From Sphaerodactylus townsendi (taxonomy: Eukaryota): a DNA stretch of 64,000 bases. The position numbers were made by a program, and so were the translations under genes. The stretch spans positions 27,714,001 through 27,778,000 of the forward strand of contig NC_059425.1 of NCBI RefSeq assembly GCF_021028975.2. Direction: 5' to 3'. The notes beneath the pieces are model-generated. The model saw only the letters and a program-made list of their open reading frames with translations, had not been told where the DNA came from and did not search any database. Positions 10,277 to 50,119 of this stretch are shown here, one piece after another; the stretch's first letter is position 1; every line of letters begins with the position of its first letter.

Positions 10277-11298
10277 CTGAGGAAGACACAATAAAGACCT
10301 GAGCACCTTATGTCTCAACATTGAGCTCACCCTGATTTCAGGCCCAGGCCAGAGGTTGTTAACGAAGCACACTGAAGGGACACAGATACCTTAACGAAAC
10401 CTCTATGCCTGATGGAGTTCAGATAGATCTCTCTCTGGTTCAGGGTATAGGATTGTGGGGATAGGATGGTGTCTTACAAAAAAAAGAACTCACACAATAG
10501 GGCTTCTACCTAACATTGCCTACCTTCACGTGCAGTTCGGTGATCTCCGTGAATCACAACTGAGCTCTAGACTGGAGAGATCAGTCCCACTGGAGAAAAT
10601 GACTGCTTTGGAGGGTGGAATCTATGACATTATACCAATGGCGTAGCGCCTTCGGGATAGGGTGGCACAACGCCCCAGGTACACGCTGCAGTGGGGACAT
10701 GACCAGGACATTCCGGGGTGGAGGCGGGCGGCACCAAGGCAGGGGCACAAGGCATGCACGTCCATGCCCTGGACACAGTTTCCCCTCACTCTGCCCCTGC
10801 ATTATATCCTGCTGGGGTCCCTCCCCTCCCCAAACACTGCTCTCTCCAGGTGCCTCACCCTAATATCAAACAATTTCTCGACCCAGTACTGACAACCCTC
10901 CTTTCACCTTTTCAACATAGGAAAGACCCACAAATCTGTATAAGCTGGGGTGCCACAAATTGAAACTAATCCACAGTGTATCAGCTCTGCCAGATGATGA
11001 GCCAACTTCAATTGAAGAAATTCCTGGAGATGGGAGGGGGGCTGTGGAGGGTGGAGTTTGGGGAGAGGAGGGAGCTGAACAGGGCTGTGATGCCATAGAG
11101 TTTATCCTCCAAAGTTGCCTTTATCTCCAGAGGAAGTTGGAAGTGATCTTTACAGGAACTCCAGGGGGATTGCAGGCTGGCAAACCTGGACACGTTACAG
11201 GATTCCAAGAAAAGGCGGTCTAAACTTGCTCAAGATCTAAGCAGTGGATCACATCCTGATCCTCCCTCTGGCATGGGGTGCTTGGCAGGAAGAGTTAC

Positions 11299-11454
11299 CT
11301 TATAGTTGACCAAGGCCTCATCCTCTTCCTGGAAGATCTCAGCATCACAGTCCTTAAGGAGCTGGACAATCTGTGCAGGGTCAGCTTTGTCGATTTCTCG
11401 TGTGATGGGGTTTGACTTCTCTGTGATCGGCAGGGCTGCCTCGTAACCGGCCAA
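11299..11454 (-). CDS. GCKR: GCKR coding exon 2
   Basis: tag|..|gtaac; LAGYEAALPITEKSNPITREIDKADPAQIVQLLKDCDAEIFQEEDEALVNYK; 156 nt. Confidence 0.97.
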
Positions 11455-22399: not shown

Positions 22400-23150
22400 T
22401 CTTTGCTCGGGGTCGGGGATCGGTGAGGCTGCCCTTGGCTGGGAGGGGACCCGGAGGAGGCGGGCCGCTTGGCGGTGGCCAGGCGGGGCGGGGCTCGGCG
22501 GCCCCGGCGTGGTTGGCGCTGCGGGACGCGCCGCTGCTGCTGCTGCCGCCGCTGCCAGCCGGGCCAGTCCTTCCAGCGGGCCGGGGTCAGGGAGCTCTGC
22601 AGGCTGCAGCGGCTGGGCTGGGCTGGGCCGTCCGGGCGCGGGGCCGTCGGGGGCTGCTGCCCGCCTGGATGGAGGAACGGCGAGGAAGCGGAGGCGGCGG
22701 CGCCGGCGCCGGCGGCGACACCTCTCCGGGCGAGGGGAGCGCGGCGCTCACCCCCGGCCCAGCGCGCCCCTTGCCTTGAGAGCCCCCGAAGCCTCGCCCG
22801 GCTCGATGAGCAGCTGCGTCTGGCCGCGGCCATGGCTCCGATGCCCGCGTACCTCAACCCGGCCGCCGTCCTGGTGCTGGTCAGCTGCGACCTGTGCCTC
22901 GTGCGCGCAAGTAAGTCGCGGCTCGGGATCGCGCGCGGCCTCCCCCCGACCCCAGCCCGGGCGCAGCAGGGCAGGCGGCGGCCACGGGGCTCTCGGCTGG
23001 GAGCGGCTGCCCTCTCCAGCCGCCGGGCCGAGACCAGCCACCCATTGGTGCAGGGGGAGAAGGGCAGGCAGGAGGGGGCGCGGGTGGGGGCTGCCGGGTT
23101 GGCCCGGGCCACAGAGCAGGTGAGAACGGGGGCTGCGTCACTGGGACTAC
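22400..23150. promoter_or_regulatory. CpG island / promoter and 5' UTR of FNDC4
   Basis: Very GC- and CpG-rich, GC box GGGGCGGGGC near 22485, spans first coding exon. Confidence 0.85.
22832..22910 (+). CDS. FNDC4: FNDC4 coding exon 1 (signal peptide)
   Basis: Strong Kozak gcggccATGG; MAPMPAYLNPAAVLVLVSCDLCLVRA vs human ..PYLSPTVLLLVSCDLGFVRA; donor gtaagt, phase 1. Confidence 0.9.
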
Positions 23151-23331
23151 AGGAGCCACCCAGCAAACCCCCCCCCCCCCCAGTCAGGGTGAGCAGGAGC
23201 CTTGGCTTACCCCAAACTCCCCCTCCCCTGCAGAAACCTTCCCTGCCTTTCTGTTCCCAGCGGCAGGAGTGAACATCCCAGCCAATTTCATTAACGTAAA
23301 AGCCTGACTCAAGAGAAGACCGCTGCCAGTT

Positions 23332-23391
23332 CTTGAGTGTGGAACATCTTCCCACAGCCTCCCCTTGAGTGTGGAACATCTTCCCACAGCT
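23332..23391. repeat. 32-bp tandem duplication
   Basis: cttgagtgtggaacatcttcccacagc twice. Confidence 0.85.
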
Positions 23392-25036
23392 ACAGCCACA
23401 GCCGGGGACACGCAGGAGCTTCACGCCCTGCAGGGCACCCGGGAGTGCACAGGCAGGCAGGCTTCCAGTTCCCGGGAGGAAACGTCTTCGGCTGGCAGGA
23501 GGTCAGGGAGTCAGTTGCCTCCCTTCTGCCCTTTTGGGTGATCCACCGGCACTTGCAGCTTGTCAGATTTGCAAGGAACTGGGCCAGAAAGGACAGTGCC
23601 TGGCTGCTCACTTCCTGATGTCCACACTAGGATCTCTAGGGAGCTAATACCTCATAAGCAGGGAGCCAGGGGGCTTCCAGACAGCACCCCAAAACAGTGA
23701 TTAAAAGGCTGGTGCTGAAACAGGGACAGGACCTGCCCAGGGCGGCTCTCTGTGGAAACTGCCCTGCTTCAGAGTAGCACATCTCAATGTTTTGTACAGA
23801 AAATAGTATTATATTGGGGGAGAGGAGCTCCACAGTATTAAGCCAACAGCTATTCTGTCATGCTCAGCTGAGAATTCCAAGCCTCTTCGTTTTATTCTGA
23901 AGAGCAAAACTTGAACGTGGCCACCTGGATCATCCCACTGGGGACCTGGAGTCCCTGCAAAGGCACTGGCAACACCTAGCCTGTTGTGCCAAACTCCTTC
24001 GTAAATATGATGCAAACCCCAGCAAAATGTAGTTGTTGCTGGAACAGCCTGTTGTGTTTCGTAAGCGTCTGACTTCTGCACATATATACACCTTCTTGTA
24101 GACTAAATTGCCGTGTCTTCTGGTTATACAGTTAGGTATCACCACAAGTACCCAGAACAAAAATTAAGGATTTGGATTTAAGGATCGGGTGGTAGGTGAT
24201 GGGAAAATTCCTCTGCTTGAAGAACTGGAGAGCAGCTGCCAGCCACAGTAGACAATACTGACCTTGCCCTGTCTATGGTGTGACTCACCGTAAGGCAGCT
24301 CCAAATGTCCAGATCTAGCACAGATTCCTCATCAAGACTTTCAAAGCCCAGCATGGCCTCTTTATCTCTCCTGTCCCAATAGCTCCCTTCAAACCCCTGA
24401 GTAACAGTCCACATGCATCAATCTTGCTTATCATAACTGGAGGAGACATCTCAAGACTACCTAGAACAGCCGCGTAACTGGCTCAAGATTCCCAGACTGA
24501 TGCTGCCCCTGCCTCAAAGAATGAATCCCCACCATTTATTTCCCTTGGTAGCCACTCCTTTTTACAAGCATGAGTATTTTGCTTCCAGAAGCTTTGATTC
24601 TATGCCTTGGCAGTTTCTGTAGTGGGTGAAATCACTGGTCGTTTGTCTTTTTAACAGATGCTGATAAAATATTCAGAGGTCTCTCCATACTCTTGTTTTC
24701 GGGCGACTTATGTGCAGTCCCGCCTCCACATACCACAAACCGTTCCAAACTATCCTCAGGAGCTCCCCGACTTGTTCCCATTTGCATAAAAGGGCAGGCA
24801 AACATCCCTTCTCTTTGCAGATTGGCCCAGTACCAAGCAGAAGAGGGACACAATTAAAATTCAGACATATCGATGATGGTCCTGAAAGATGCAGTTGTAC
24901 CCCAGAGACAACATGTGCTGTCACAGTGAGCATCCCGAGGGAATCCTTTGTAGTACTAATGTGCAGCCAAGATGCTCTTGTTCCGTGTCACTATTCCCAC
25001 TTTCCAGTGTAGCAACCCCTAACCATTTGGCATAGG

Positions 25037-25554
25037 CAGAGGTGGGATCCAGCAGGTTCTCACCAGTTCCCGAGAGTGGGTTACTAATTATTTGTGTGTG
25101 CCGAGAGAGGGTTACTAATTGGGTCCGCTTTTCCATCTCCATGCCCTTGCCTCCCTGAGAGGCATACTGCCTTTGAACGTGAAGGTTCCATATAGCAATT
25201 GCGACTAATAATGTAGCTCCCTGAACTGGGTTAATCCCTTTCAGGTTCTGCAATTCATTGATTCTCAGCCTTTCGTACCTTTTATCTCACCAGTCTCTAT
25301 CAAAGAACCTGTGTGTTTCACCATTGCTGTGTTCAGATTTGTGAGTTGGGGCATTTTCTATAATGTGATGATGATTTAGAAATGACCTGGTGCAAAAAAA
25401 ATTTGGGGGGTCGTGGTGGGGTGGCTGCCCATGGGGGGGGCATCCAACTCAGGTTTTGCCCAGGTCTCAGGTTTGCCTAGGTACGCCTCTGCCCCCTTTG
25501 CTGAGGGGGGCTGGTGAGGGAACCTGTTACTAAATTTTTTGGATCCCACCACTG
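25037..25554. mobile_element. Non-autonomous hAT transposon (same ends as 1033-1424)
   Basis: Same TIRs and subterminal sequence; perfect 8-bp TSD ggcatagg. Confidence 0.9.
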
Positions 25555-26438
25555 GGCATAGGAGATCGTTTCCACCCCATGTCCAGGTTCCCAGGTTCCT
25601 ATCCCAAACCCACCACACCACCCCTTGCATCCAATGGGCTCCAACTGAGGTAAAATGGAAAAATTTCCAGGAGGGTATTGGAAATGCACATTCCACATTC
25701 TGCAGTTGCATTTAGGAGATGGTGTTGTGCTTCAGAACAGCCCCAGGGGAGGGTCTTTGGTTCAATGGTACAGCATCTGTTTTGCCTGCAGATGGAGCAG
25801 AAGGTCCCATGTCCAATCTCTGCCACCTCAAGTTTAACAAAGACTCAGGTAGGAGATGATAGGGAAGATTTTCATCTGACCTTGCCAGTGCCAGGTAGGG
25901 TCAAAGGTCCTCCTGATTCAGTAAAAGGCAGCCTCACGTGTCCTTGTTCTAAGAAGTTTGCATGCAGTGTGCAGTTCTATTTCTCTACCCCTATTGCCAT
26001 CCAATTATTTTTTAAAAGACGTTGAAATTTACTAGAAAAAAATCTGCCATCTTTAATGGCATCCATAATCTGAGTCTTCCGCTTCGGTCATGGTAAAGCA
26101 GCCTGTACTTCTGTGACCCTTGCTGGTCTGAAACAATTGATGAGCCTGTCTCACGTATATTTGTGCTTCCAGCTGCTAGAACTATGCGTCAAAGGTGTTT
26201 CAGAGCCGGTGTATTGTGACGGTTAGACAATTGGACTAGTGATTAAGGAGGCCTGGGTTCAAAATCCCACTCAGTCATGAAACTCACTAATAGAGCCATC
26301 ATGGTGTAGTGGTTAGGAGCAGGTGGATTCTAATCTGGAGAACCAGGTTTGATTCCCCACTCCTCCATTCGAGTGGCAGAGGCTTGGTGAACCAGATGTG
26401 TTTCTGCACTCCTACATTCTTTACAGGAGAGAAAGGTG

Positions 26439-26655
26439 NNNNNNNNNNNNNNNNNNNNNNNNNNNNNNNNNNNNNNNNNNNNNNNNNNNNNNNNNNNNNN
26501 NNNNNNNNNNNNNNNNNNNNNNNNNNNNNNNNNNNNNNNNNNNNNNNNNNNNNNNNNNNNNNNNNNNNNNNNNNNNNNNNNNNNNNNNNNNNNNNNNNNN
26601 NNNNNNNNNNNNNNNNNNNNNNNNNNNNNNNNNNNNNNNNNNNNNNNNNNNNNNN
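26439..26655. other. Assembly gap (N run)
   Basis: 217 N. Confidence 1.
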
Positions 26656-27391
26656 AGTAAACAATTGAAAAATCTAAGTAGGATTCTGCACAGATCTGCT
26701 TAGATGGTGCTGTAAGTGACCGTGCTCCAGTCACTCTATTTTAACCTAACTTGCCTTGCAGGACTGTTGTACTGATAAAATGGAGGAGAGATCCATACAT
26801 GTCATTTTGAATTTCTTGAGGAGTTGGTTTTTATGCCTCACTTTTCTATAAAGGGAACAGAATTGTACCTCAACAGTACAGTCCTATAAAGAGCTATACT
26901 TTTCTATGTCCATTGACTTCAGTGGAGCTAGAAGAGTGTAACTGTGCTTAGGAATGCACTATGAATGTCTGAAAAATTCAAGCAGCTTATTAGACTCTCA
27001 CTTACTTACTTAAATATTGATGTTGCTTAAATAGTCAAAAGGCCACAAGGAGCATCACGCTAATATAATCCCCAAAATTAACCCCTTTTGCAATTGATTA
27101 CCACTCACAAAAATGTAGCTACTAAATAATGTGTTTTTATTATCTTTGTCAGATAATAGCCACTGAATTAAGATTTGTGAGGAAAGATGGGATTTATAAG
27201 AGAAATGTTGCCCTAAATATTTCTGCCTCAGATCACCCCAACAGCAGAGCAACAAACTGTGTTGTAGAGTCTCTGTATGGCCATTCCCACATTCACAACT
27301 TTTATCTGATTAAGGAATGCCTGCAAAAATGCCATTTGGTGACCCTAGATGGAAACATGTTCAGCCTAGCTAACACGAATGCTCTTCTTGG

Positions 27392-27590
27392 TATGGCTAC
27401 CAATCTTGATCCTCCTTGATCTGAGATTGCAAAGGCCTTAGCAGACCAGGTGCTCGGGAGCAGCAGCAGAAGGCCATTGCTTTCACATCCTGCACGTGAG
27501 CTCCCAAAGGCATCTGGTGGGCCACTGTGAGTAGCAGAGTGCTGGACTAGATGGACTCTAGTCTGATCCAGCAGGCTTGTTCTTATGTTC
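27392..27590 (+). mobile_element. CR1 3' UTR fragment
   Basis: Near-identical to 2036-2242. Confidence 0.9.
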
Positions 27591-28245
27591 CTGTATTGAT
27601 GTGCTGTTAAATTCAAGACATATTGTGGAATGGAATTAGAGGAGATCAAGCCATAAATGGCAACTGAGCAAACTCACCAAAACCACTCCTGTTTAATGCT
27701 GGAGCAAGAGATGTCACCATTGATTTGATTTCATTCATCTTGTACGCTTTTCTGAGATTAAAACCCAACATCTGCAATCTATTTACAGTAACCTTCCCCC
27801 CCCCCCCCAAGAGGACACAAATTGATCTTTTCTAATAAGGCTTATAAACCCATCTTTAGACACACGCATCTTACAGTATAGTGAAAAGTCATTTTGCCAC
27901 GCAAGGGCCTCCAGGGATTTCTGACCTAATTCCACTCTGAGAGCTACGCTGAAAACTCAGTTTGGCATCCCCACAACAGAAGGGAGCAATTGCATTAAGA
28001 ATTAATCAATTCCTTCACCTTCCACATCAATCGAGACTCAAGTAACATACAATAATTGGGGAGGGGGGAGAGATCACCTTGGCTATTGCACTGTTAGTTT
28101 TGTATTACACTATTTTTGCTGCAGTGTTTAAAATTGTGGTAATCTCCCTTGAGTTTCAGCACCACCCAATGAACACTCCCCAAAGACTGTTGTGCTCTAC
28201 TGGAAACAGCATATTGGTAATCTCTGACCCAAAAAACATCTAGCT

Positions 28246-28320
28246 CAGGGGTGTCCAACTCTGGCACTTCAGATAGTCATAGACTACAATTCCCATCAGC
28301 CCCTGCTGGCTTCACCCCTG
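28246..28320. mobile_element. hAT MITE, right arm mostly deleted
   Basis: caggggtg..cacccctg with perfect 8-bp TSD atctagct. Confidence 0.85.
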
Positions 28321-28373
28321 ATCTAGCTGTGCTTGACCAGAGCCAGGAATTTTTGGGCCTAGCCTGGTGGAAC

Positions 28374-28573
28374 TTGATCCTCCTTGACCTCCTTGATCTG
28401 AGATTGCAAAGGCCTTAGCAGACCAGGTGCTCAGGAACAGCAGCAGCAGAAGGCCATTGCTTTCACATCCTGCACGTGAGCTCCCAAAGGCACCTGGTGG
28501 GCCACTGCGAGTAGCAGAGTGCTGGACTAGGTGGACTCTGGTCTGATCCAGCAGGCTAGTTCTTATGTTCTTA
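28374..28573 (+). mobile_element. CR1 3' UTR fragment
   Basis: Near-identical to 27392-27590, ttcttatgttctta tail. Confidence 0.9.
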
Positions 28574-29463
28574 ACTCTGTCAAATGAGACCAGAGCCCTG
28601 TAGGATTTACCTCAGTTCTGCCTGTAAGACAGAGATGTTCTGCCTGTAAGACAGAGATGTTCTGCCAGGCCTAAGGTTGAGATGGTCTTACATCAATTGC
28701 CCTCCCTTGCTGGACCCTATTAGAGTTATACATCTCCCGATGATGGCATTGTCTCTGAGAAAATTTCACCCACAGAAGGATGATTTCCCCTTTAGGTGGG
28801 TTACAACAGTGTAAAGAGGGAATTTATTGATTAGTGCCCCATTCCTTGTTGCTTAGGTTTTTAAAAAAATATTTAATACAAATATATGAGTAGGTTTTAC
28901 AGTTTTATATAATTTTATATAACTGCACGGTTAGCAGCCCTGAGCCTGATCTCATCAGGAAATTGTGGGATACAAACCAATCAATCAAACAAATAAATAA
29001 GACTATAAATGAAGCTATTATTATCAGTGCAAGTAGCAGCATTAATAACAATAGTAATAATAATAATAAAGAGAAGGTCCACAATTTACATGTGTATCTC
29101 CCCTAGCCAGATGGCAGAGAGAGGGGGCGGAGAGAAGCAGGTTGGTGTCATAGGCTCAAATTCAATCCAAACTCCAGACTCCCCTTCATCCACTGGGCAG
29201 GAAAACGAATAATACTTCAGTCCTATCAGGTTTGGAAGGCCATGAAGTGCTCACCCGTGCACGGTGAGCATCACCAGTTCCTGAAAGGCAGCAAGGAGGA
29301 CACGCTCCATTCTGCTTCAACGGGCAGAGTTCAGCTTTTGCCCTGACTGCGCATCTCCTCTGAGTGCAAGGCAGAGTGCATGATCCAAGCCAAGCAATTG
29401 GCACAAGTTGGAGGTTTGCTCCAGCGGCAAGACTGTGAATCGGCAATTCTCAAGACTTGGTAT

Positions 29464-29887
29464 CAGAGACGTAGCTAGGCCAGAGTGCATCCGGTGCACA
29501 CTCTGGCTTTTTGGCCCCCTCATCAAGAAGATCTGTTTCTTTAAAGCAAAGGAGCAGTGCAGTTGGAGAAGAGAGCCTGTTTCAGCCCTTTCCAGGGCTG
29601 CAGTCGACCTGGTGGGAACTACATTTCCCAGAGTCTCCTGGGGAATGTAGTTCCCACCAGGCTGTTTGCAGCCTGAAAGGGAACACAGGCAGGCCTCCTT
29701 TCTAGCCTGCTCCATTTGTTAAAGTAAGTGTGTGTTGTGGCATCGTGGGGGGGGGGGTGAGTTGAGGGGCTGACCAATGAGGGGGGAAGAGGGAGGGGTA
29801 GGGGGAATTTTCTGCCCCCCACGTGACCCAAAGCCGTGCGCCTGGTGCATGGCGCACCACCCCAATCCCCTGGTAGCCCCGCCACTG
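29464..29887. mobile_element. Older hAT-type non-autonomous element with internal palindrome
   Basis: Ends cagagacgtagcta / tagccccgccactg; TSD cttggtat/cttggtgt; internal hairpin 29586-29681. Confidence 0.7.
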
Positions 29888-30009
29888 CTTGGTGTAGTTT
29901 GAATTGAGGGACATATCTCAAGTCTTGTCAAATCTGGAGTGCCTACTAAGTACCTGAAAATTTTCCATTCCCTGCCCTGACCTCCTCTGCCTTTTCTTCT
30001 TGGTTGCAG

Positions 30010-30125
30010 ATAGACCTCCTCCCCCCGTCAATGTAACTGTCACACAGCTCAAAGCAAATTCAGCAACTGTCTCCTGGGATGTCCCCGAGGGAGATGTCAT
30101 TATCGGCTATGCCATCTTACAGCAG
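30010..30125 (+). CDS. FNDC4: FNDC4 coding exon 2 (FN3 domain start)
   Basis: cag|..|gtaagt; (N)RPPPPVNVTVTQLKANSATVSWDVPEGDVIIGYAILQQ. Confidence 0.97.
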
Positions 30126-30355
30126 GTAAGTCTGAGACGAGCGTCACTGGTCTTTGGCTTGCACAGCATTGGCCCTTTAGGCCCCTACCTCTCTGGGCTC
30201 CCTATTTCTCCATGGCAGGACCCTGAAATCCCTGGGAGAAATCCCCCCAAACCAGGCCTCCGGTGGAAGGCTAGGAGTGGCTCCTTTTCTCCATATGGAG
30301 AGTGGCTTGCCCCTAGCCTGGCTGGCCCCTCTGATCACCTCCCTGGTTCTGGCAG

Positions 30356-30560
30356 CGGCAAGACGGACAGATGCAAAGATTCATCCGAGAGGTGAACACC
30401 ACGAACCGGGCCTGTGTGCTGTGGGACCTGGCGGAGGATGCAGACTACATCATACAAGTACAGAGTGTCGGTCTCTATGGAGAAAGCCAAGCCAGCAAGA
30501 GAGTCCATTTCCGCACCCTGAAGCAGAGCGATCGCCTCCCATCTAACAGCTCCAACCAGG
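30356..30560 (+). CDS. FNDC4: FNDC4 coding exon 3
   Basis: cag|..|gtagg; RQDGQMQRFIREVNTTNRACVLWDLAEDADYIIQVQSVGLYGESQASKRVHFRTLKQSDRLPSNSSNQ. Confidence 0.97.
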
Positions 30561-30728
30561 GTAGGCAGAGCAGAAAAAAAAAGATTCTGTCCCCTTCCCC
30601 TTTGTCTCCTCCCCAACCTGGCTGCTGTTCTTTGGAGACCTACTTTGAGCATGCAGTAAGTTTGACTTCTGAGGCGGTTCTCAGTGTGGTGGATCAGTAT
30701 CTGTAAATACATCCGTCTCACTCTATGG

Positions 30729-30915
30729 CAGTGGTTCTCAACCTGTAGGTCGGGACCCCTTTGTGGGGTCGAACGACCCTTTCTCAGGGGTCACCTAAGA
30801 CTCTCTGCATCAGTGTTCTCCATCTGTAAAATGGATAAATGTTAGGGTTGGGGGTCACCACAACATGAGGAACTGTATTAAAGGGTCCCGGCATTAGGAA
30901 GGTTGAGAACCACTG
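30729..30915. mobile_element. SPIN (Space Invaders) hAT MITE, URR1-like
   Basis: cagtggttctcaacct.. and ..ggtcaccacaacatgaggaactgtattaaagggtcccggcattaggaaggttgagaaccactg; perfect TSD ctctatgg. Confidence 0.88.
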
Positions 30916-31052
30916 CTCTATGGCATATCTCCTATTAATCCCTGGACCCATCCTGATAGGGAATAAAATCTTGAACTGCCTCCTCCTGGGGCCAGGTCTA
31001 TCATGACCTGGCAGCAATCAAGCAAGATGACGGAGAGGGTGGAGATGAGGGA

Positions 31053-31215
31053 GGGACCATGGCTCAGAGGCAGAGAATCTGTTTGGCATGCAGAAGGTCA
31101 CAGGTTCGATTCTTGGCATGGATCAGGTAACAGGCGACATGAACGATCTGTGCCTTAAATTCTGGAGAATCTATACCGGTCAGTTGATGATAGTGACCTT
31201 GACAGCTAGTCAGTA
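31053..31215 (+). mobile_element. tRNA-derived SINE with CR1-like tail
   Basis: tggctcagaggcagag..caggttcgattcttggc head; related copies about 17251-17460, 38690-38865 (-), 44555-44735. Confidence 0.65.
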
Positions 31216-31383
31216 CAAGGGAGGGAGGGAGGGAGGGGTGCTGTTTTTCCAAGTGTGTGAATATTTTGTGCCCCGTCCCCCTCCAAGCTTCAGAACTGAG
31301 CACCAGAATGGTAAATAAGTTTCACAAGTGAACTTCAGCGAGTCTTAGCTCCATCTCAGCCATGTGTCTTTGCATCCATACAG

Positions 31384-31473
31384 GAGACATCACTGTGGAG
31401 GGGTTGGACAAAGAACGCCAGTTGCAGACAGGGGAGATTATCATCATTGTGGTGGTGCTGCTCATGTGGGCAG
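31384..31473 (+). CDS. FNDC4: FNDC4 coding exon 4 (transmembrane start)
   Basis: cag|..|gtgagt; GDITVEGLDKERQLQTGEIIIIVVVLLMWA. Confidence 0.96.
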
Positions 31474-31724
31474 GTGAGTTAGCTGGACAGCTGTTCTCCA
31501 CACTATAGAGATGAACTTCCCCAAAGGGAGTGGCAGCTTGGGAGACCGGGAGAGAAGGGACTATCTTGGATAACATCCCAAGCTCCCTTCCCTCCCCCAA
31601 ACTCAACACTCCCCAGCTATCACCCCCAGATCTTCAGGAATTTCTCAAGCCAGAGTTGGCAACCCTAACTGTAGTGGGCCACAGCCTATCCAATCACTCA
31701 CTTTTCTGCTTTTCTGGTGCTGAA

Positions 31725-32100
31725 GCAATCAAGGTATTAGAATTGGCTGAAATGACCAAGTTAACTTTGCTACTTAAAGTAAAGAACTTAAGTTCATGGA
31801 CCACCGGAAACCCTTGATAGAATGTCTAGATAAAATAGAAGAAAAACCCCCAACAAATTGATGACTAGTGTTTTTGAAGATTAAGAATTGTTAAATTAAG
31901 ATCTAATAGAGAAAAGTGAGACATTTATTAGTAATGATGCTAAAGATTTAATTTCATTTTGATGCTTAATGATCAAGTGCTGAAAGTGAAGGGTTTAAAA
32001 GGGTTAATATTTGGTGTAGAAGAAACTGGAAGTTTATATAAAATAAATACTGTATAATTTGGTGAACTTCTGTTTTTGTGCATGACTTTGATTTCGAAGT
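31725..32100 (+). mobile_element. L1/Tx1-type LINE 3' relic
   Basis: KVLELAEMTKLTLLLK followed by AT-rich 3' UTR-like sequence. Confidence 0.5.
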
Positions 32101-32313
32101 ACAACTTGTGTTTTTTTATAAAAAGCACGTAGCGGGTGTTTAGAAGCCTCTTGCGCACAGGGCACCAAGTTTGCAGGCAGGCGCAAATATGGCGGATCCT
32201 CTGATAAGAGGCTGAGAAGAGAGATGATTGGGGGGAGGTAACAATTAGCCAGGCAAGGTAGTTAAGCGATGCTGTCTTTTTCTCCCCCACCCACCTCTCT
32301 GGTGACATCCTAG

Positions 32314-32447
32314 CGGTCATTGCGCTCTTTTGCAAACAATATGACATCATCAAGGACAACGATTCCAACAATAACAAGGAGAAGACCAAGCCTTCTTCAG
32401 AACACAGCACTCCAGAGCGGCCCACCGGGGGCCTCCTGCGCAGCAAG
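32314..32447 (+). CDS. FNDC4: FNDC4 coding exon 5 (TM end, cytoplasmic tail)
   Basis: tag|..|gtgagt; AVIALFCKQYDIIKDNDSNNNKEKTKPSSEHSTPERPTGGLLRSK. Confidence 0.96.
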
Positions 32448-37986: not shown

Positions 37987-38022
37987 AAGAAAACACCATC
38001 TGTCAATATCATCGAAGTGTAG
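37987..38022 (+). CDS. FNDC4: FNDC4 last coding exon (stop)
   Basis: Polypyrimidine tract + cag; KKTPSVNIIEV* vs human KKSPSINTIDV*; NAGNAG acceptor (cag-aag). Confidence 0.92.
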   Translation, partial: KKTPSVNIIEV

Positions 38023-39280
38023 CTGTTATCACAGGTCAGGAGCCTTCTAGGACTCTCGGACCTCACTGTGCTCCACGCCTGGCTCCGCACCTGCATGCAA
38101 AGAATTCATGCTTCTTGCCCCCCATCGAGGAAATCTGCATGGAGCAGCTGGCGCAGGGTGCATGCAGAAGCCAGTCTCTAACCCTCCTGCCCAAAAGCCA
38201 CAAGAAACTCTGGCCTGCGGTTGGTGCGGCCACAAGGGGCAGCCGCGAGAATCCTGTGGAAAGAGTAGCATCCAGAACCGCGGACAGCTACTGCCTGAAC
38301 AGTGTTGGTGTGGCCTTATTTCTGCCTGGTGTGGGAAGCCAGAGCAGTGGACTGGAGTCTTTCCCACCCTCTACCCTGTGCCTGGATGAGTGCTGAAGGC
38401 ATTGCTTACTACTGGACCCGGACCTTTGAGTTGTGCAATTTGGTTGGCCCACCTAAAGGAAGAAGCTGTGCAGCTGGCTGGAAAGCAAATGACTTTTGAT
38501 GAGGCTCCTTTCAATGTAGCAACTTGATGGGGACTGTGGTGCATGTGTGCAGAGAGTGGAGTGCTTGGGATGGTTGTGGGGGGCGGGCAGTGCTCTACCA
38601 AGTCTGGCAGGCAGCTACTTCCACTGGGGAAGCAAAGGGACATAGGGCGAAGATCCAAACACACAACACTGCCATATTAGAGTCCAACCATTTGTCTGTC
38701 TAGGCCAGTATTGCCAGCTCTGACTGGCAGCAGCTCTCTTAGGTCTCAGGGCTGAGGACTTTCACATCTTCTGCAACCTGATCCTTTTAAGTGGAGAGGG
38801 TGAGGATTGAACCTGGCACCTTCTGCATGCAAAGTGGGTCCTCTCCAATTGAGCCATGGTCCCACCCTACCTATCTGGACTAGTTAACATTCTAGAAGTG
38901 CCCTGAAAAAGCATTAACTCCAAGGAGGAGCTAGATACTGAAACTCCTGAATGAATGTTTCTACGTGTTTCCAGGTCCAATGGAATAGGAAGGCAGGATC
39001 AGTTTGTCCTGGTGGACAAGCAGCAGATATGCTGTGGAAAGAGCTCTTTCCCTTTCCCCACCTCCAGCAACAAGAGCTCACCGGGACTGTAGGAATCTGG
39101 CACCTCCCTGATGCAAAAAAACCAAACAAAAACCCAGTTCCCACAGATCTATCTTTTGTACCAAAGGCTCTGGTTGGTGGCATCTCTGCAAAAAGACAAG
39201 GGCTTGGTCATGTATCCTCTGCCTCAAGTACACAGCCATTCCTCCTCCTAATCCTGGGCCAGAATTCAGTATGTCTATTC

Positions 39281-39428
39281 CAGGGGTAGGGAACCTGCGG
39301 CTCTCCAGATGTTCAGGAACTACAATTCCCATCAGCCCCTACCAGCATGGCCAATTGGCCATGCTGACAGAGGCTGATGGGAATTGTAGTTCCTGAACAT
39401 CTGGAGAGCCGCAGGTTCCCTACCCCTG
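39281..39428. mobile_element. Palindromic hAT MITE in probable FNDC4 3' UTR
   Basis: Near-perfect 148-bp palindrome; perfect 8-bp TSD gtctattc. Confidence 0.92.
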
Positions 39429-39874
39429 GTCTATTCTATCCTCCCCCACCAGCCAGAGGAGCAGCAACATCTGGAGTCTCCTTTCGTAGAGTCCAACTGC
39501 CCAATTTCCACTCCCAAGTGTTCCCCAAATGGCATTCCTAGCCTGGTTCGGTGCCACAGGAGAAACTGGAAGCTGCCCATGTTCTCCACCGCCCCACACA
39601 CACTGCCAGTTGAAGCCAGAAGGCTGCTGGGCCACCCCAAGGCACGCGCACCAGCATCCACTGACCGTCTTCCAGTAATCCAGCTCTTCCAGCCCAAGGC
39701 CACAGCTCAGAGTGTTGCACAGGGGGTGTGAGAGAGGTCAGCAGCATCTGAGCACTGTGGGAGGAGCATGCAGGTGAGTCAGGAAGGGAGAAAGAGAGCT
39801 TGCAGCTAGGCTGTCCCTTGGCTTCCATAGGGCATTGGGAGGGGACGATGTTGCTGCTCAGTGAGGTCCTTTTC

Positions 39875-39880
39875 AATAAA
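39875..39880 (+). terminator. Candidate FNDC4 polyadenylation signal
   Basis: First AATAAA I found downstream of the stop; an alternative lies at 40972-40977. Confidence 0.5.
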
Positions 39881-40296
39881 AGACTCTTCCGACAAAGGCA
39901 GCGCCACAGCCTGTGCTCTCCTATCCCCCACCCAGAGGGGCCTGAGCAGGCAGCAACAGGGTTGCCTCACAGGTGTGTCTTACACAACTGACCACTGGCA
40001 TTGGTTTGGTGGGATGCATTTCTTCTGAACAACTAAATGGCTAGTCCTTGTGGCTGATGTTTTGAACACACAGCCAAGAGCCTTTTTGAAGAAACAACTG
40101 GAAGCCACACATGTGCCTCCTCCCCACACCATGGTGTCTGCCTCAGGGCCCTTGAATAGATTTCCACCAAGAGGCCAGGCTGTATTTTTCCTCCTAACAT
40201 TGCCACAAAGTAGGATTCTACCAGCAAAATACCCAAAAATTCTGCTATTAACATCCCTGCAAAACGTATGAACAGATAATCTATGTCCATTCAAAT

Positions 40297-40442
40297 CAGG
40301 GGTGTCCAACTCTGGTGCTTCAGAAGTTCATGGACTACCATTCCCATCAGCCCCTGCTGGCATGGCCAATTGGTCATGTCATCAGGGGCTGATGGGAATG
40401 GTAGTCCATGAACTTCTGAAGCACCAGAGTTGGACACCCCTG
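40297..40442. mobile_element. Palindromic hAT MITE
   Basis: caggggtgtccaac..gttggacacccctg; flanks attcaaat / atttgaat. Confidence 0.9.
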
Positions 40443-41630
40443 ATTTGAATCATCTGACAACAGACGTAGGGATCCTCAGCCCTGTGCAAAAGGCCTTGAG
40501 CAGAGACCACAGCCCTCCACTCCTGGAAGATGACCATCAGAAGTGAACGCAGGTTGCTTCATGCCCAGGCCGTTTTGTGCACTCCGGTGATCTAGGGCAG
40601 GTGAAGTCCTTGAGGTCTTTTATCAAGTCAACCATTAGGCTATCTAGCTCACTGCTTATTCTGACTGGTGTCTGTTCTTCAGGGTCTCACACAGAGAAAA
40701 GGTCCTTCCTTACCCTGACTGCCTTCTGCTTGCCAGCTCTGGGCGCCATTGTTGGACCATGGCCTTCTCCTCAAAGCCGCTTACAGAGGAAGTTACCGTA
40801 TTCCTGGCTGCCATTGCCGCTCATCTACCGAGCTCCACAATGCTCTCGAATCCTGTGATTGTGAGGAAAATCACTCCTTGAAAAGCCACAGTGCCAGCAC
40901 TCAGGAATCCTGGGCACTGTGGCTAGCTCAGGAGGACCTCTTCCCAAGTAACTAATACCCAATATGAAAGAAATAAACAGGGGATGGGGAACTGCCTTTC
41001 TTGGTCCCCTGATTCCAAGTGTGCCACTCCCAAATGGCCAAATCTGTTTGGTTAGCCTCCCTGCTTCTTCCTTGGACCAGCCTACTCTTGCTGGGACCAC
41101 TCAGTAGCACTCCCTCCTCTCTCAAGGCTCCATGATATACCAAGCTGCCCCAGGCCAGTAACTTCTTGAGAACCTCTTTGCTGGGAGTGGAGGACCTCAC
41201 ACTACCACCACTATTCCATCAGAAGAGGAAGAGTTTGGATTTATACCCCGCCTTTCTCTCCTGTAAGGAGACCCAACATGGCTTCCAAACTCCTTCCCCT
41301 CTCCACAATAGACACCTTGTGAGGCAGGTGGGGCTGAGAGAGTTCAGAGAGAACTGTGACTGGCCCAAGGTCATCCAGCAGGCTTCATGTGGGGGAGCAG
41401 GGAAACAAATCCAGTTCACCAGATAAAAAGCCCACTGCTCTTAACCACGACACCATGCTGTCTCTCAAAAGGGTGGGAGAAGAGAGATGAGGGAAGAAGA
41501 GAGAACCTACATGAGCCAGTCCAGTGGAAACTGAGTCCTATGAGCTGGGGAGACCGATGCTTGTCCTCACTCACCAATCTGGACTGAGGGTGCTGCAAGA
41601 AATGGCGCCAAAATACAACAGTACAAATTG

Positions 41631-41636
41631 TTTATT
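41631..41636 (-). terminator. Candidate polyadenylation signal of the LDLRAP1-like gene
   Basis: AATAAA on minus strand followed by a GT/T-rich tract (ttgtactgttgtattttgg). Confidence 0.55.
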
Positions 41637-42117
41637 TCCCTTTAGAAAAGGACATGAAAAACTAACATCTTTTTGCTACAAAGCTGATTTGGCAGTGATG
41701 AGAGACGGGGACAGAGGCGGGGCGGGGCTGCCACCTTCCCACTGGACCACAAGGAAAGCTGGCAGAGAGGCTAGAGTTCCCCTGTACCCCCACAACACAC
41801 AGCTTCCTCCAAGAAGCAGGGGAAAAGGGGATTGAAACTGATCTCCCTGTATAGTAGCATGCCTGACCAGAGGCGGGATGCACCCCTTGGCCTGCAGGGG
41901 TGGGGTCTTCAAACAAGGCCCAGCCCCATTACCCAATATACCCACAGGAGGTCCTGGAGCACCCCCAGCTACAGGCAGAGCCTGGCGCAGTCTACCCTCA
42001 GGTGACTCAGGCCAAGCCGCAGAAGAACTGCTGGTGACCCAGAGGCTAACTGAGGCTCGGAGTGAAGTAAGGTGATGCCAGCCAATCAGGGAGCTGCGCC
42101 TGGAGAGCTGAAGGAGA

Positions 42118-42298
42118 TCAGCTGGTCCTTTGTGTGCTACAGAAGAGTGGTGCTGGAGATGGCGAAGATGGCGGTGTCAGAGTCCAAGTTAGAAAAGCAT
42201 CCCTGGGGGCAGGTGGCTGTTGGGGTGGCCACTTCCCATCGTCGCCTCCGACTGGAACTGTGTGACTGGGGAGCTCCCGAAAGCAACGCAGCCCACAT
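42118..42298 (-). CDS. LDLRAP1-like adaptor, putative terminal coding exon 8
   Basis: Acceptor ctgtgtttcag; a phase-2 join gives GCGLRCFRELPSHTV..STQRTS*; no recognisable ARH homology, supported only by splice signal, phase and downstream polyA signal. Confidence 0.45.
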
Positions 42299-42781
42299 CT
42301 GAAACACAGGCGGGCAGAAGCAGAGGGACTGAGAAGAGTGACACGGGGTGGGGAGGAGCACACCAAGGGGTGGGAAAAATGGGGAAATCAAGAACCCCAA
42401 AAGCTCGGTTACCTGTCGCAGAGCAGCCACCTTCTTCTGTGAAACTTGGGGCAGAGAAAAAGAGACGTGTCAGAGCAAGAGAAGCAGAGCCTTCCCCCCC
42501 CCCCACACACACACACAAACGCCAAGGAGCTGGGTGACCTCTCATTCCCACCACAATCCTGCAGCCATGACTGAACTCCCTCCTTGCCATCCGCTCTTTT
42601 ATTTATTTAGATATTTATATCCTGCTTTTCTTCCCAGTGGGGGCTCAAAGCAGTGTACATCATCCTCTCCTCCTCTTTTCCATCCGTTCCACAATCACCG
42701 TCTGAGGTAGGCTAGGCCAAGAGAAAGTGAATGGCCAGCCAAGCAAGCAGCCATGGCAGAGCACTGTGGCCTCTCACCTAC

Positions 42782-42840
42782 CCAGAAAAGGAGTCGGGGA
42801 GATCGCTTTCCTCCTCTTCTTCTTCCTCCTCATCCTCCTC
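42782..42840 (-). CDS. LDLRAP1-like exon 7 (acidic)
   Basis: tag|..|gtaggt; EEDEEEEEEEESDLPDSFS(G), phase 0 to 2, like the ARH exon ELDDGLDEAFS(R). Confidence 0.7.
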
Positions 42841-42966
42841 CTAGCACCAGAGAAGAAGAACATGTGGTTGCAGCCCCCGGCCTCCTCTGAAGGCCTCCAG
42901 AATTCACTGCCTCCAAGGCCTGGGAGAGGGAAGGCCTCACAGCCCCAGTCCCCTCAGCCCTACTTC

Positions 42967-43067
42967 CAGTGATGTGATTCCAATAATTTAACAACCGGTT
43001 GTTTACAAGCACCATTTTAACAACCGGTTCTGCCGAAGTGGTGCGAACCTACTGAATCCCACCACTG
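42967..43067. mobile_element. Short hAT MITE
   Basis: cagtgatgtgattc..gaatcccaccactg; perfect TSD cctacttc. Confidence 0.85.
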
Positions 43068-43177
43068 CCTACTTCCCAGGGGGCAGCAACACGCCAGGAG
43101 GGAGGAGTGCACACTCGCCAGCACACAGCAGCTTAGTTAGGGACCAAAGGGGAAGGGGCCTTTGCCCAACACCATAC

Positions 43178-43281
43178 CTCAAAGTTTGTCTTAAAGGGGG
43201 GACTGCCCATGGGTGACCTGACTGGCTGGCAGGTACTTTCCACAGGGCACAGCATGCTCAGCGAGTGCTCTTGCCGGGAGC
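43178..43281 (-). CDS. LDLRAP1-like exon 6
   Basis: tttcag|..|gtatgg; GSRQEHSLSMLCPVESTCQPVRSPMGSPPFKTNFE; phase 1 to 0 bridges exons 5 and 7 in frame. Confidence 0.65.
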
Positions 43282-43672
43282 CTGAAACAAGATCAGGGAA
43301 AGACCAAAGGGACATCTCAGCGCTCATGTGATTGTTACAAGCTCAACTGGGGAGGGGGCTGGTCTGCTTCCCTCCCTCACCTCCTCGACAACTTCTGCCG
43401 AATCAAGAAAGAAATGCCTCTGAGCATGTCAGGAGTGCCCTCCCCTCCTCCATGTCCACCCATTTTGTGATCAGGGGGTAAAAAATTAAGCCCCTGCTTC
43501 TGTGCCTCACTTGGCCTACCTGGAAAAGGACAAACCAGGGACAGTGAGGCAGGGCAGGAGGACAGGCCCTGCAGGAAGGTTAGTGGAGTCGCTGATGCTG
43601 CACCAGGGCTCGGCCTCACCAGGGGAGAGAATGCGTGTCCCCACCCACCCAAAAAGGCAGACATGTTCCTAC

Positions 43673-43745
43673 CTGCCTGGGCAGCCTCCCAAAGATCCAG
43701 AGCTACCTGGAAGGCCTGCGCCACAGTCAGCGTCACAGCTTGGGC
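43673..43745 (-). CDS. LDLRAP1-like exon 5 (PTB C-terminal helix)
   Basis: AQAVTLTVAQAFQVALDLWEAAQA vs ARH AQAVTLTVAQAFKVAFEFWQ; 73 nt. Confidence 0.93.
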
Positions 43746-43990
43746 CTGGATGTGGGGAAAGAAAACCCATGTGCCTGAGAAGGCAGCCAACCTGGACATA
43801 TCCCTGAGACAGAATGTGGGGAGGGGGGAAAGGCAGGCAACAGACAAGGCAGAAGGCCAAGACACGGAAGCCACCCCAGGAACCAGCCAGCCTGCACTGT
43901 CTCGTCTAGGCAGCACGTGGAACCACCCCCTCTTCCTTCCCCAAGCCCCTGCAGTCCCCACAGGGGAAAGCAGTCCACAGAGGAGCTTAC

Positions 43991-44105
43991 GATCTTCTTC
44001 TTGGGTGACAGAAAAGCATGGCACTCAAGCGCACCGCTCTGCGGGTTCTGGGCCACGTAGGCAAAGACTTTGTTCTGCAGCTTGTCCGTGGTGCAATAGG
44101 AAATC
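43991..44105 (-). CDS. LDLRAP1-like exon 4 (PTB)
   Basis: ISYCTTDKLQNKVFAYVAQNPQSGALECHAFLSPKKKI vs ARH ISYCTADKMHDKVFAYIAQSQHNQSLECHAFLCTKRKM; 115 nt. Confidence 0.95.
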
Positions 44106-45080
44106 CTAGGGGGAGAGGGCAGGAAAGGTGTTCAGTGCTTCCTCTGGGCATGTTACTACAAGCAGGGGAAATGAGCAGTCCTCACCAAAAACCAGAGGAG
44201 CCTGTGAGCCGCAGGGACAGAATTTGAGAGGGGGGAGGGGTTGGGGGTGTAGCATATGAAAGAGTCCACACGCAAAAACAACAGGCTGCAAACCATCCAC
44301 AGCCAAGAGAATAGAAGCGAGCCAGAATGTATATCTCCTCTCTTCCCAACAGGTCTGGGAGCACTACAGGTGGACCAGAGGTCAGCCATGCTGCATGCAG
44401 ACAGAAAACACTTCCTTCCAAATAAAGGAGCGGTCAGATTAAACGCAAACCCAGTAGCACTTGAAAGACCAATCACGTTTACTCCAGCAGAAGCTTCGGC
44501 AGGTCAGAGCTCACTTCGCCAGATGCATCTCAGACTCACAAAAGCTGAGCAGAGGGATTGTGGGTCAGCGATAAAGCATCAGCTTAGCACACAGAAGATC
44601 CAAAATTCAATCCCTGGATCCCTCCAGTTAAAAGTATCAGGTCGTGTGAAAGGGCTGGAGAGCTGCTGCCAGTCAGAGCGGGCAATACGGACGTTGATGG
44701 ATCAAAGGTCTGATTCCATACAAGGCAGCTTCACGAGTTCAGGCCTCTGCTGGAATAAACTCTCTCTTGAAGGGGCCACAGGACTCCTGTTTAACGTTGT
44801 TAACAATAGACTAACATAACTGCCTGTCTTGAATTACTATCAGGTAGGAAGCACACACAAGGATGCCAGTCAGAGCCCCCAGATGGCTCCCTCATCTTTC
44901 TCCTCCTCAAGGAAACTCACAGCCAGGTCTGTGTGTTCTGGGCACTTCCCTTCACACCAGGCTTTAGGTTTCTACACATCAAAGTCTAAGGTTCTTTTGC
45001 ATGATTTTGAACCTGCTCAAGATCATGATGCTACAGCTGCCAGTGGTAGGTGAACCTACCTACAAGGAGAACCTGGGTGA

Positions 45081-45936: not shown

Positions 45937-46049
45937 CTGTAGATGGAGACATTTTCAATGGTCTCCTTTGTCTCGGCATCCTGTAGAGAAAGGCCCCGGG
46001 GCGACACAGTCAGAATCACCTTCTGGAACTTCTTCGGTCCCACCCGAGC
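45937..46049 (-). CDS. LDLRAP1-like exon 3 (PTB)
   Basis: ARVGPKKFQKVILTVSPRGLSLQDAETKETIENVSIY(R) vs ARH AKASGKKLQKVTLKVSPRGIILTDNLTNQLIENVSIYR; 113 nt. Confidence 0.95.
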
Positions 46050-46484: not shown

Positions 46485-46627
46485 CATGGTAATGATCCGG
46501 TGAATGGCTGCAGTCGCCATATCCTCCCCTTTAGGTTTCTCCACCAACGTCATGCCCAAGTACTTGAGCGCAAACCCCATGCCCTCCAGAAGGGGCTCGC
46601 GCATGTCAGCCCAGGTCTCTGGCAGTT
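46485..46627 (-). CDS. LDLRAP1-like exon 2 (PTB start)
   Basis: QLPETWADMREPLLEGMGFALKYLGMTLVEKPKGEDMATAAIHRIITM vs ARH KLPENWTDTRETLLEGMLFSLKYLGMTLVEQPKGEELSAAAIKRIVAT; 143 nt. Confidence 0.95.
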
Positions 46628-49656: not shown

Positions 49657-49753
49657 GCTGCCGGTGCCGGCGAAGGCGGGAGACGCCCAGGCGATGCCGA
49701 GCCAGGCTGGGGCTCCTGAGCACAGCCCGTCCCGCAGCCCGCAGCGCCTCCAT
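49657..49753 (-). CDS. LDLRAP1-like (low density lipoprotein receptor adapter protein 1-like) exon 1, start codon
   Basis: MEALRAAGRAVLRSPSLARHRLGVSRLRRHRQ vs ARH MDALKSAGRALIRSPSLAKQSWGGGGRHR; donor gtgagt, phase 1. Confidence 0.93.
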
Positions 49754-50034
49754 CGGGGAAACCAAGGGAAGAGAGGGACCAGACGGTTGGGCGGAGCCTC
49801 GACTGAGCGGGCGGGGCTTGCCCAGGAAGGGCGGGGCTTTGCCTGGCTCCGTCGCCAACTCTCCTCCTCAGCTTCGAGCGCTACGACTGCGCATGGCCGT
49901 CTAACCAAGCTCCTAGTCCCGCCCCTCCTTCCGCGCGTCGCCGTCGCTGTCCTCAGCGGCGGCCTGTTCCCGGTGGCTGTTGCCTAGGTAACGGGCGCGG
50001 ACGCGACGCGGACCTCGAGCGCCTTGATCGGGCC
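49754..50034. promoter_or_regulatory. Bidirectional CpG-island promoter (LDLRAP1-like / IFT172)
   Basis: 281 bp between divergent ATGs; CpG-rich; GC boxes near 49789, 49809, 49828; TGCGCATG near 49889. Confidence 0.85.
49979..49992. promoter_or_regulatory. RFX X-box
   Basis: GTTGCCTAGGTAAC fits the palindromic X-box consensus, 42 bp before the ATG of a core ciliary gene. Confidence 0.8.
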
Positions 50035-50073
50035 ATGCCTCTGAGGCACGTCCGGACTCTGCTCACCCCGCAG
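50035..50073 (+). CDS. IFT172: Intraflagellar transport protein 172, exon 1
   Basis: gccATG; MPLRHVRTLLTPQ vs human MHLKHLRTLLSPQ; donor gtgaga. Confidence 0.93.
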
Positions 50074-50119
50074 GTGAGAACCGGCGAGCCGGGAAATGCT
50101 GTTCACACGAGCTATAGGT

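What the first reader, a model, noticed from the sequence alone, without database searches (positions are those of the whole stretch)
42118..43745. The ARH paralog keeps the cargo-binding PTB but appears to lack the clathrin box and AP-2 motif: a possible uncoupled or decoy adaptor
Seen: the PTB helix TVAQAF is intact, but after it one 104-nt exon replaces the two ARH exons and has no LLDLE-like sequence. The exon equivalent to ELDDGLDEAFSR reads EEDEEEEEEEESDLPDSFSG and is not followed by LAQSR. Established: ARH links FxNPxY receptors (LDLR, LRP1, megalin) to clathrin through LLDLE and to beta2-adaptin through DxxFxxLxxxR. Inference: the paralog could bind NPxY cargo and phosphoinositides without driving clathrin uptake (a competitive brake), or route cargo to other machinery through its acidic tract. 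This could matter for lipoprotein or yolk handling in egg-laying amniotes. The C-terminal exons are my least certain calls.
Basis: partly seen in the sequence, partly recalled or inferred. Interest (0 to 1): 0.7.

Follow-up and report, generated by a model that had tools for sequence, protein, structure and literature searches.

The report
ARH twin unplugged from clathrin coat
This lizard gene is an ancient twin of the LDL-receptor adaptor ARH that keeps the cargo-gripping domain but lacks both motifs ARH uses to hook onto the clathrin coat, so it likely holds receptors without pulling them into pits; in fish and amphibian gene models a tiny exon splits one of those motifs, leaving it whole or broken depending on splicing.

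Summary
Observation confirmed. Contigs of one run join all nine exons, giving a 281-aa protein identical to a database 'LDLRAP1-like' record. The PTB matches the same genome's ARH at 93 of 147 residues and keeps the S117/F165 equivalents. The tail has no clathrin box, and the beta2-adaptin motif has lost its D and R positions. True ARH on contig C6 keeps both.

The gene is the ortholog of fish si:dkey-71h2.2 (tree), between FNDC4 and IFT172. New here: a 32-nt exon (42413-42444) sits inside the AP-2 motif and shifts the last exon's frame. An equivalent 23-32 nt exon explains 16 of 19 chosen isoform pairs from bichir to snakes. In many fish, lungfish, salamanders, caecilians and basal frogs, skipping leaves an intact motif; inclusion destroys it. 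Sauropsids lost it in both forms (0 of 170 records).

Best reading: a coat-uncoupled cargo binder descended from a splice-switchable adaptor. Binding and the 'brake' role are untested; Dab2 p67 is a precedent. No paper on this paralog's protein was found.

The parts
49657..49753 (-). Exon 1 (coding part, from ATG): ARH-type N-terminal segment; head-to-head with IFT172
   Evidence: joint 46627/49657 in X4; translation
46485..46627 (-). Exon 2: start of PTB domain
45937..46049 (-). Exon 3: PTB
43991..44105 (-). Exon 4: PTB, carries S120 (ARH S117 equivalent)
43673..43745 (-). Exon 5: C-terminal PTB helix with F168 (ARH F165 equivalent)
43178..43281 (-). Exon 6 (104 nt, phase 1 to 0): spans what are two exons in ARH; no clathrin box
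42782..42840 (-). Exon 7 (59 nt): acidic tract and first half of the decayed beta2-adaptin motif (F233 kept, D position is P230)
42413..42444 (-). Exon 8: 32-nt frameshifting micro-exon inside the AP-2 motif; equivalent exon inferred in fish and amphibian orthologs
   Evidence: joints 42444/42782 and 42298/42413; frame test
42189..42298 (-). Exon 9 coding part, read in the inclusion frame; inferred descendant of the ancestral LAxSR exon
41631..42188 (-). 3' UTR; X4 contig reaches 41747, an AATAAA lies at 41631-41636 (true end not shown by contigs)

Best explanation
The gene encodes an expressed, conserved ARH paralog with an intact ARH-type PTB domain and neither ARH coat motif, so it likely binds FxNPxY receptor tails and membrane lipids without coupling them to clathrin, AP-2 or AP-1. 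It would then compete with ARH and Dab2 for LDLR-family tails and keep receptors at the surface or divert their recycling, much as ARH R265A/R266A mutants do. History (inferred from isoform records and the tree): after duplication the lineage had no clathrin box but kept the beta-adaptin motif, and gained a frameshifting micro-exon inside it, so one gene could give an AP-coupled (skip) and an uncoupled (inclusion) form. In sauropsids the skip form's motif decayed and the inclusion frame became the main product. Shown: exon structure, motif absence, PTB conservation, paralogy, frame relation of isoform pairs. Inferred: cargo binding, lack of coat binding, competition, regulation of the splice choice.
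For: All 8 joints in X4 contigs; ORF identical to record P0520. PTB 93 of 147 identical to this genome's ARH, S117/F165 equivalents kept (their role from PMC2845073); best PDB match 3SO6, E 9e-54. PTB identity to python, turtle, alligator and bird orthologs 95, 90, 87, 86% against 61, 53, 37, 39% for the tail. Of 12 endocytic motif patterns, 11 have no match in residues 178-281; the only match is the deliberately relaxed pattern without the R. Strict clathrin box in 0 of 130 ray-finned, 0 of 3 lungfish, 2 of 63 amphibian and 0 of 170 sauropsid/other records, against 22 of 34 ARH records; full beta2 motif in 22, 1, 10, 0 and 15 of the same sets. Frame test: 16 of 19 isoform pairs fully compatible, 0 of 2000 shuffles each. 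R266A abolishes beta1/beta2 binding and blocks LDLR-CT27 surface delivery as a dominant negative (PMC3082197); R265A keeps dynein binding and sends megalin into fast recycling (PMC3704979).
Against: No binding or cell data. Drosophila Ced-6 binds AP-2 and clathrin as well as ARH does without extended homology outside the PTB (PMC3338440), so absent consensus motifs do not prove absent binding. The window product keeps F-x-x-F after a long acidic tract. R266A still binds clathrin, so its dominant-negative effect does not transfer directly to a protein lacking both motifs. The PTB has a long stem branch at the base of sauropsids (0.17) and differs from ARH next to the groove, so cargo may have changed. 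Isoform pairs are annotation models that I picked by eye, not reads; only the inclusion form was seen here, in one run of unrecorded type and tissue. The motif's R was also lost in several frogs and some teleosts, which fits relaxed selection as well as a switch.
Confidence: 0.5

Rival explanations
1. Signalling or transport scaffold rather than brake: the PTB has shifted to other partners (Dab1-like signalling, dynein/centrosome/cilium or nuclear roles known for ARH), and loss of coat motifs simply frees it from endocytosis.
For: Long PTB stem branch in sauropsids; N-terminal segment and PTB strongly conserved; ARH R265A keeps dynein binding; ARH has centrosomal and nuclear pools; the gene shares a promoter region head-to-head with IFT172.
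Against: Both residues known to matter for LDLR binding are kept; gene neighbourhood is no evidence of shared function; not exclusive of the best explanation.
Confidence: 0.25
2. Still a working clathrin adaptor through non-canonical contacts (acidic tract plus remnant aromatic residues, or a partner that bridges to the coat).
For: Ced-6 precedent; F233 and F236 sit at the two hydrophobic positions of the motif; the acidic tract is kept across tetrapods.
Against: The second F is seen only in the window's own species among 37 distinct sauropsid inclusion junctions listed; birds often have L for the first F; D and R positions are lost, and D-to-R alone costs 30-fold (PMC1540706); a frameshifting exon placed inside the motif suggests the inclusion form is a motif-less product.
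Confidence: 0.15
3. Slow neutral decay of a redundant duplicate: tail and micro-exon are unregulated and the gene is on its way out.
For: Independent losses of the motif's R; tail identity low; human and other mammals have FNDC4 and IFT172 next to GCKR with no such gene named (PMC3613411).
Against: PTB 86-98% identical across sauropsids; micro-exon position, frame and acidic content kept from bichir to snakes; intact open frame and clean joints here.
Confidence: 0.1

Closest known systems
ARH / LDLRAP1 (PTB-type clathrin-associated sorting protein; PDB 3SO6)
   Same: N-terminal segment, PTB (93 of 147 identical to this genome's ARH), exon phases of exons 5, 7/8 and the phase-2 junction inside the beta2 motif.
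   Different: Separate clade and locus; no LLDLE; motif D and R lost; acidic tract; micro-exon inside the motif (no acidic look-alike among 7 candidates in ARH intron 8); unrelated last-exon frame.
Fish si:dkey-71h2.2 / Xenopus MGC130936 / 'LDLRAP1-like' (orthologs, database names only)
   Same: Same clade (19 rows, 89/88), no clathrin box, same micro-exon; an LDLRAP1-like gene beside FNDC4 and GCKR is mentioned for coelacanth and beside FNDC and BLK for cod.
   Different: Skip-type records keep the full motif in 20 of 28 ray-finned, 1 of 1 lungfish and 10 of 15 amphibian cases; sauropsid records never do.
Dab2 p67 splice form; Dab1
   Same: PTB adaptor whose splice variant lacks endocytic motifs and only partly rescues endocytosis (PMC6912373).
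   Different: p67 drops a region; here inclusion of a tiny exon breaks the motif by frameshift, and one lineage fixed the motif-less state for the whole gene.
ARH R266A / R265A / F259A laboratory mutants
   Same: PTB intact, beta-adaptin motif dead.
   Different: The mutants keep the clathrin box; the paralog lacks both and is natural.

Membership tests
ARH/LDLRAP1 clathrin adaptor | N-terminal ARH-type PTB domain | tested here: met
   3SO6 E 9.4e-54 for the leopard-gecko ortholog; 93 of 147 to own ARH
ARH/LDLRAP1 clathrin adaptor | Cargo-critical S117 and F165 | tested here: met
   S120 and F168, mapped through P0152 and P0299; role. The full 3SO6 contact list could not be read.
ARH/LDLRAP1 clathrin adaptor | Clathrin box (LLDLE type) | tested here: not met
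   absent in product and in all minus frames of 38000-43745; present in own ARH
ARH/LDLRAP1 clathrin adaptor | [DE]xxFxx[FL]xxxR beta-appendage motif (definition: PMC1540706) | tested here: not met
   inclusion form P230..F233..F236...G240; in-silico skip form has C at both the L and R positions
ARH/LDLRAP1 clathrin adaptor | Orthology to LDLRAP1 | tested here: not met
   true ARH lies on C6; separate clades
ARH/LDLRAP1 clathrin adaptor | Binds FxNPxY tails and PI(4,5)P2; recruited to coated pits | not testable with these tools
   needs pull-downs and imaging
ARH/LDLRAP1 clathrin adaptor | C-terminal PDZ-interacting motif (noted for ARH) | tested here: inconclusive
   squamates and turtles end in a conserved hydrophobic tripeptide, birds and alligator do not; binding untested
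LDLRAP1-like / si:dkey-71h2.2 clade | Groups with fish and amphibian LDLRAP1-like proteins | tested here: met
   one side of a branch in 100% of 200 bootstrap trees; clade support 89/88, not starred; sauropsid set 100/99
LDLRAP1-like / si:dkey-71h2.2 clade | Linked to FNDC4 and GCKR | tested here: met
   coelacanth arrangement
LDLRAP1-like / si:dkey-71h2.2 clade | Frameshifting micro-exon at the phase-2 junction of the AP-2 motif | tested here: met

The most novel reading that the evidence does not exclude
Bony vertebrates have carried since their common ancestor an overlooked ARH twin whose regulated micro-exon toggles it between an AP-2/AP-1-coupled adaptor and a natural dominant-negative for LDL-receptor-family traffic; reptiles and birds locked it in the inhibitory state and mammals discarded it, so non-mammalian lipoprotein and yolk uptake has a built-in brake that mammals lack.
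Probability: 0.25. Interest if true: 0.75.

Novelty: new variant of a known kind. Interest (0 to 1): 0.5.

Why it matters
ARH is the textbook modular adaptor, and its coat-binding mutants are known only as laboratory tools. A natural paralog with that anatomy, plus an old splice switch inside the AP-2 motif, makes it directly testable in zebrafish, axolotl or chicken whether cells regulate LDLR-family uptake by an uncoupled adaptor. It also warns that databases often label this gene plain 'LDLRAP1' or 'ARH' in fish and birds, which can mislead expression studies. Relevance to human lipid biology is indirect.

Tried and rejected
Hidden exon with a clathrin box or LAxSR: none in three minus frames of 38000-43745. 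Pseudogene or mis-assembly: rejected, joints clean and frame open. Rescue of the motif by skipping exon 8 in this species: rejected in silico; no skip joint was listed in X4, but contigs drop rare forms, so this is no evidence of absence. Run search: no RNA holder listed; X4 is treated as RNA-like only because its contigs carry GT-AG joints that X1-X3 lack; depth was not used to rank expression. Same micro-exon in true ARH: 7 candidates in intron 8, none acidic. Frame test misses: lungfish 1 of 1 residue (uninformative), sturgeon pair 2 of 15 (a different isoform), a cross-species pair 13 of 15. One row (inv176) was left out of the tree. No mammalian record appeared in the 120 listed hits of each of three homolog searches (218, 1190 and 1475 hits in all), which does not prove loss; the Atlas gave phylum-level taxa only. 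No structure or complex prediction was run: a PTB-peptide job would pass by likeness to 3SO6. Papers not held: Mishra 2002, Dvir 2012, Lehtonen 2008. Earlier findings: nothing in three look-ups. Literature searches for the paralog found only the synteny mention in PMC3613411; no supplements were read, and gene lists in supplements may hold it.

Full report
Gene structure. The finding covers the 3' half of a nine-exon gene on the minus strand (ATG at 49753, stop ending at 42189). Four runs hold the region (none on record as RNA). Contigs of run X4, but not X1-X3, carry GT-AG joints at seven introns; laying X4 alone on 41480-44150 lists five joints, including exon 4-5, so all eight are seen. The spliced frame is 281 aa and is identical to database record P0520, named 'LDL receptor adapter protein 1-like isoform X1' of Sphaerodactylus. 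That record may come from the same genome and is not independent support.

The observation. Exon 5 closes the PTB helix. One 104-nt exon follows (phase 1 to 0), then a 59-nt exon with the acidic tract, ending in phase 2. This genome's true ARH lies on contig C6 and has two exons in that span, the second with LLDLE, then DEAFSR joined in phase 2 to LAESR. In the window product, residues 178-281 match none of 11 strict endocytic motif patterns and only a relaxed twelfth without the R; no clathrin-box or LAxSR pattern exists in any minus frame from 38000 to 43745. Against the published motif [E/D]xxFxx[F/L]xxxR (PMC1540706, passages) the product has P, F, F, G at the four positions.

The PTB. It is 93 of 147 identical to this genome's ARH and keeps the equivalents of S117 and F165, whose mutation removes or lowers LDLR affinity (PMC2845073, section 10). 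The leopard-gecko ortholog's best PDB match is the ARH PTB, 3SO6. Over 132 PTB residues the window protein is 98, 95, 90, 87 and 86% identical to gecko, python, turtle, alligator and guineafowl orthologs, while the 104-residue tail is 74, 61, 53, 37 and 39%. I could not read the 3SO6 paper, so the full contact list is untested.

What the gene is. Homolog searches return 'LDLRAP1-like' records from squamates, turtles, birds, amphibians, lungfish and ray-finned fish, the last named si:dkey-71h2.2. In a PTB tree of 35 rows, 19 paralog rows and 9 ARH rows fall on separate sides in all 200 bootstrap trees (paralog clade 89/88, ARH 90/81, neither starred). Neighbours are GCKR, FNDC4 and, head-to-head, IFT172 (FNDC4 is named from its match to FNDC5 plus the known gene order). 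The only other match to the FNDC4 exon lies on C6, 7 Mb from ARH, which fits duplication of a whole block; that this is the vertebrate whole-genome duplication is my inference from recalled human gene order. PMC3613411 (passages) mentions an LDLRAP1-like gene beside FNDC4 and GCKR in coelacanth and gives the human and mammalian order without it. Loss in mammals is likely but not shown here.

Motif history. Among fetched records with a recognisable PTB end, a strict clathrin box occurs in 0 of 130 ray-finned, 0 of 3 lungfish, 2 of 63 amphibian (both Xenopus tropicalis, in an extended tail) and 0 of 170 sauropsid/other paralog records, against 22 of 34 ARH records. The full beta2 motif occurs in 22, 1, 10, 0 and 15 of these. 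Records are isoforms and partial models, not species, and the 170 include at least four unnamed fish- or frog-like records.

The micro-exon. Fish and amphibian records come in two forms after the acidic DxAFS: one continues R-L-A-x-S-R, the other S plus 7-10 mostly acidic residues and a short new tail. I tested whether the two tails can be two frames of one exon. Of 19 hand-picked pairs, 16 are compatible over every residue compared (8 to 36) with 0 of 2000 shuffles reaching that; implied exon sizes are 23, 29 or 32 nt. Lungfish is uninformative (1 of 1), the sturgeon pair fails (2 of 15, another isoform) and a cross-species pair gives 13 of 15. The window's exon 8 is 32 nt at the same phase-2 junction, with similar acidic content. 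Among skip-type records the motif is whole in 20 of 28 ray-finned, 1 of 1 lungfish and 10 of 15 amphibian cases; it has lost its R in neobatrachian frogs, Xenopus and some teleosts. Turtle skip forms keep the L but have H for R; squamate skip forms lose both. So sauropsids lack the motif whichever way they splice. These are annotation models; I saw no reads for them, and only the inclusion form in X4. No acidic look-alike was found among 7 candidates in true ARH's intron 8.

How it likely works. ARH lacking beta-adaptin binding is not stabilised in coated pits (F259A), blocks basolateral delivery of an FxNPxY cargo (R266A, PMC3082197, passages), and sends megalin into fast recycling while still binding dynein (R265A, PMC3704979, passages). 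ARH and Dab2 compete for cargo. A protein with the PTB and neither coat motif would therefore most likely occupy LDLR-family tails without sorting them into pits or AP-1 carriers: a competitor or re-router (0.5). Rivals are a PTB scaffold with changed partners (0.25), non-canonical coat binding as in Ced-6 (PMC3338440, passages; 0.15) and slow decay (0.1). Nothing here links the gene to yolk handling in particular.

Novelty. The gene is annotated, and a motif-poor splice form of a PTB adaptor is known (Dab2 p67; PMC6912373 passages; PMC5122593 passages). Seven searches aimed at the paralog or such a switch (listings only, except the papers cited) found no description of its protein, its motif losses or the micro-exon; the library lacks most subscription journals and no supplements were read. 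PMC4317164 (passages) uses LDLRAP1 only as a structural template. Verdict: real feature, new variant of a known kind, function inferred; interest 0.5.

Noticed in passing
window 11233-11454 (-) and onward: GCKR exon; this lizard has the gene, which PMC3613411 reports deleted in birds and could not find in the anole assembly. Intactness not checked.
   Followed up: partly
window ~22600-32400 (+): FNDC4 exons; the paralogous exon matches contig C6 at 101.7 Mb, the contig that holds ARH.
   Followed up: partly
window ~49750-50100 and 51100 onward (+): IFT172 starts head-to-head with the paralog across a short CpG-rich stretch; possible shared promoter, exact IFT172 start not mapped.
   Followed up: partly
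window 42189-42298 (-): Compared with turtles, the squamate last exon appears extended by about six codons at its 5' end; the S-H-T remnant of the ancestral S-R-T survives in the skip frame.
   Followed up: partly
window 42189-42210 (-): Squamate and turtle inclusion-frame proteins end in a similar hydrophobic C-terminus, possibly PDZ-binding; birds and alligator differ.
   Followed up: no
window 39275-39419: An X4 contig covering 38000-40285 (probably FNDC4 3' UTR) omits this ~145-nt inverted-repeat element, suggesting an insertion polymorphism (table 8).
   Followed up: no
P0172 and P0169: A snail record and an unnamed ARH-like protein carry the beta2-type motif without a strict clathrin box, so the AP-2 motif may be the older of ARH's two coat links.
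   Followed up: no
G000:C16:22777149-22777757 (L011) and G000:C8:111780862-111781353 (L014): Two long single-frame PTB-like matches at 28% identity, probably other PTB families.
   Followed up: no
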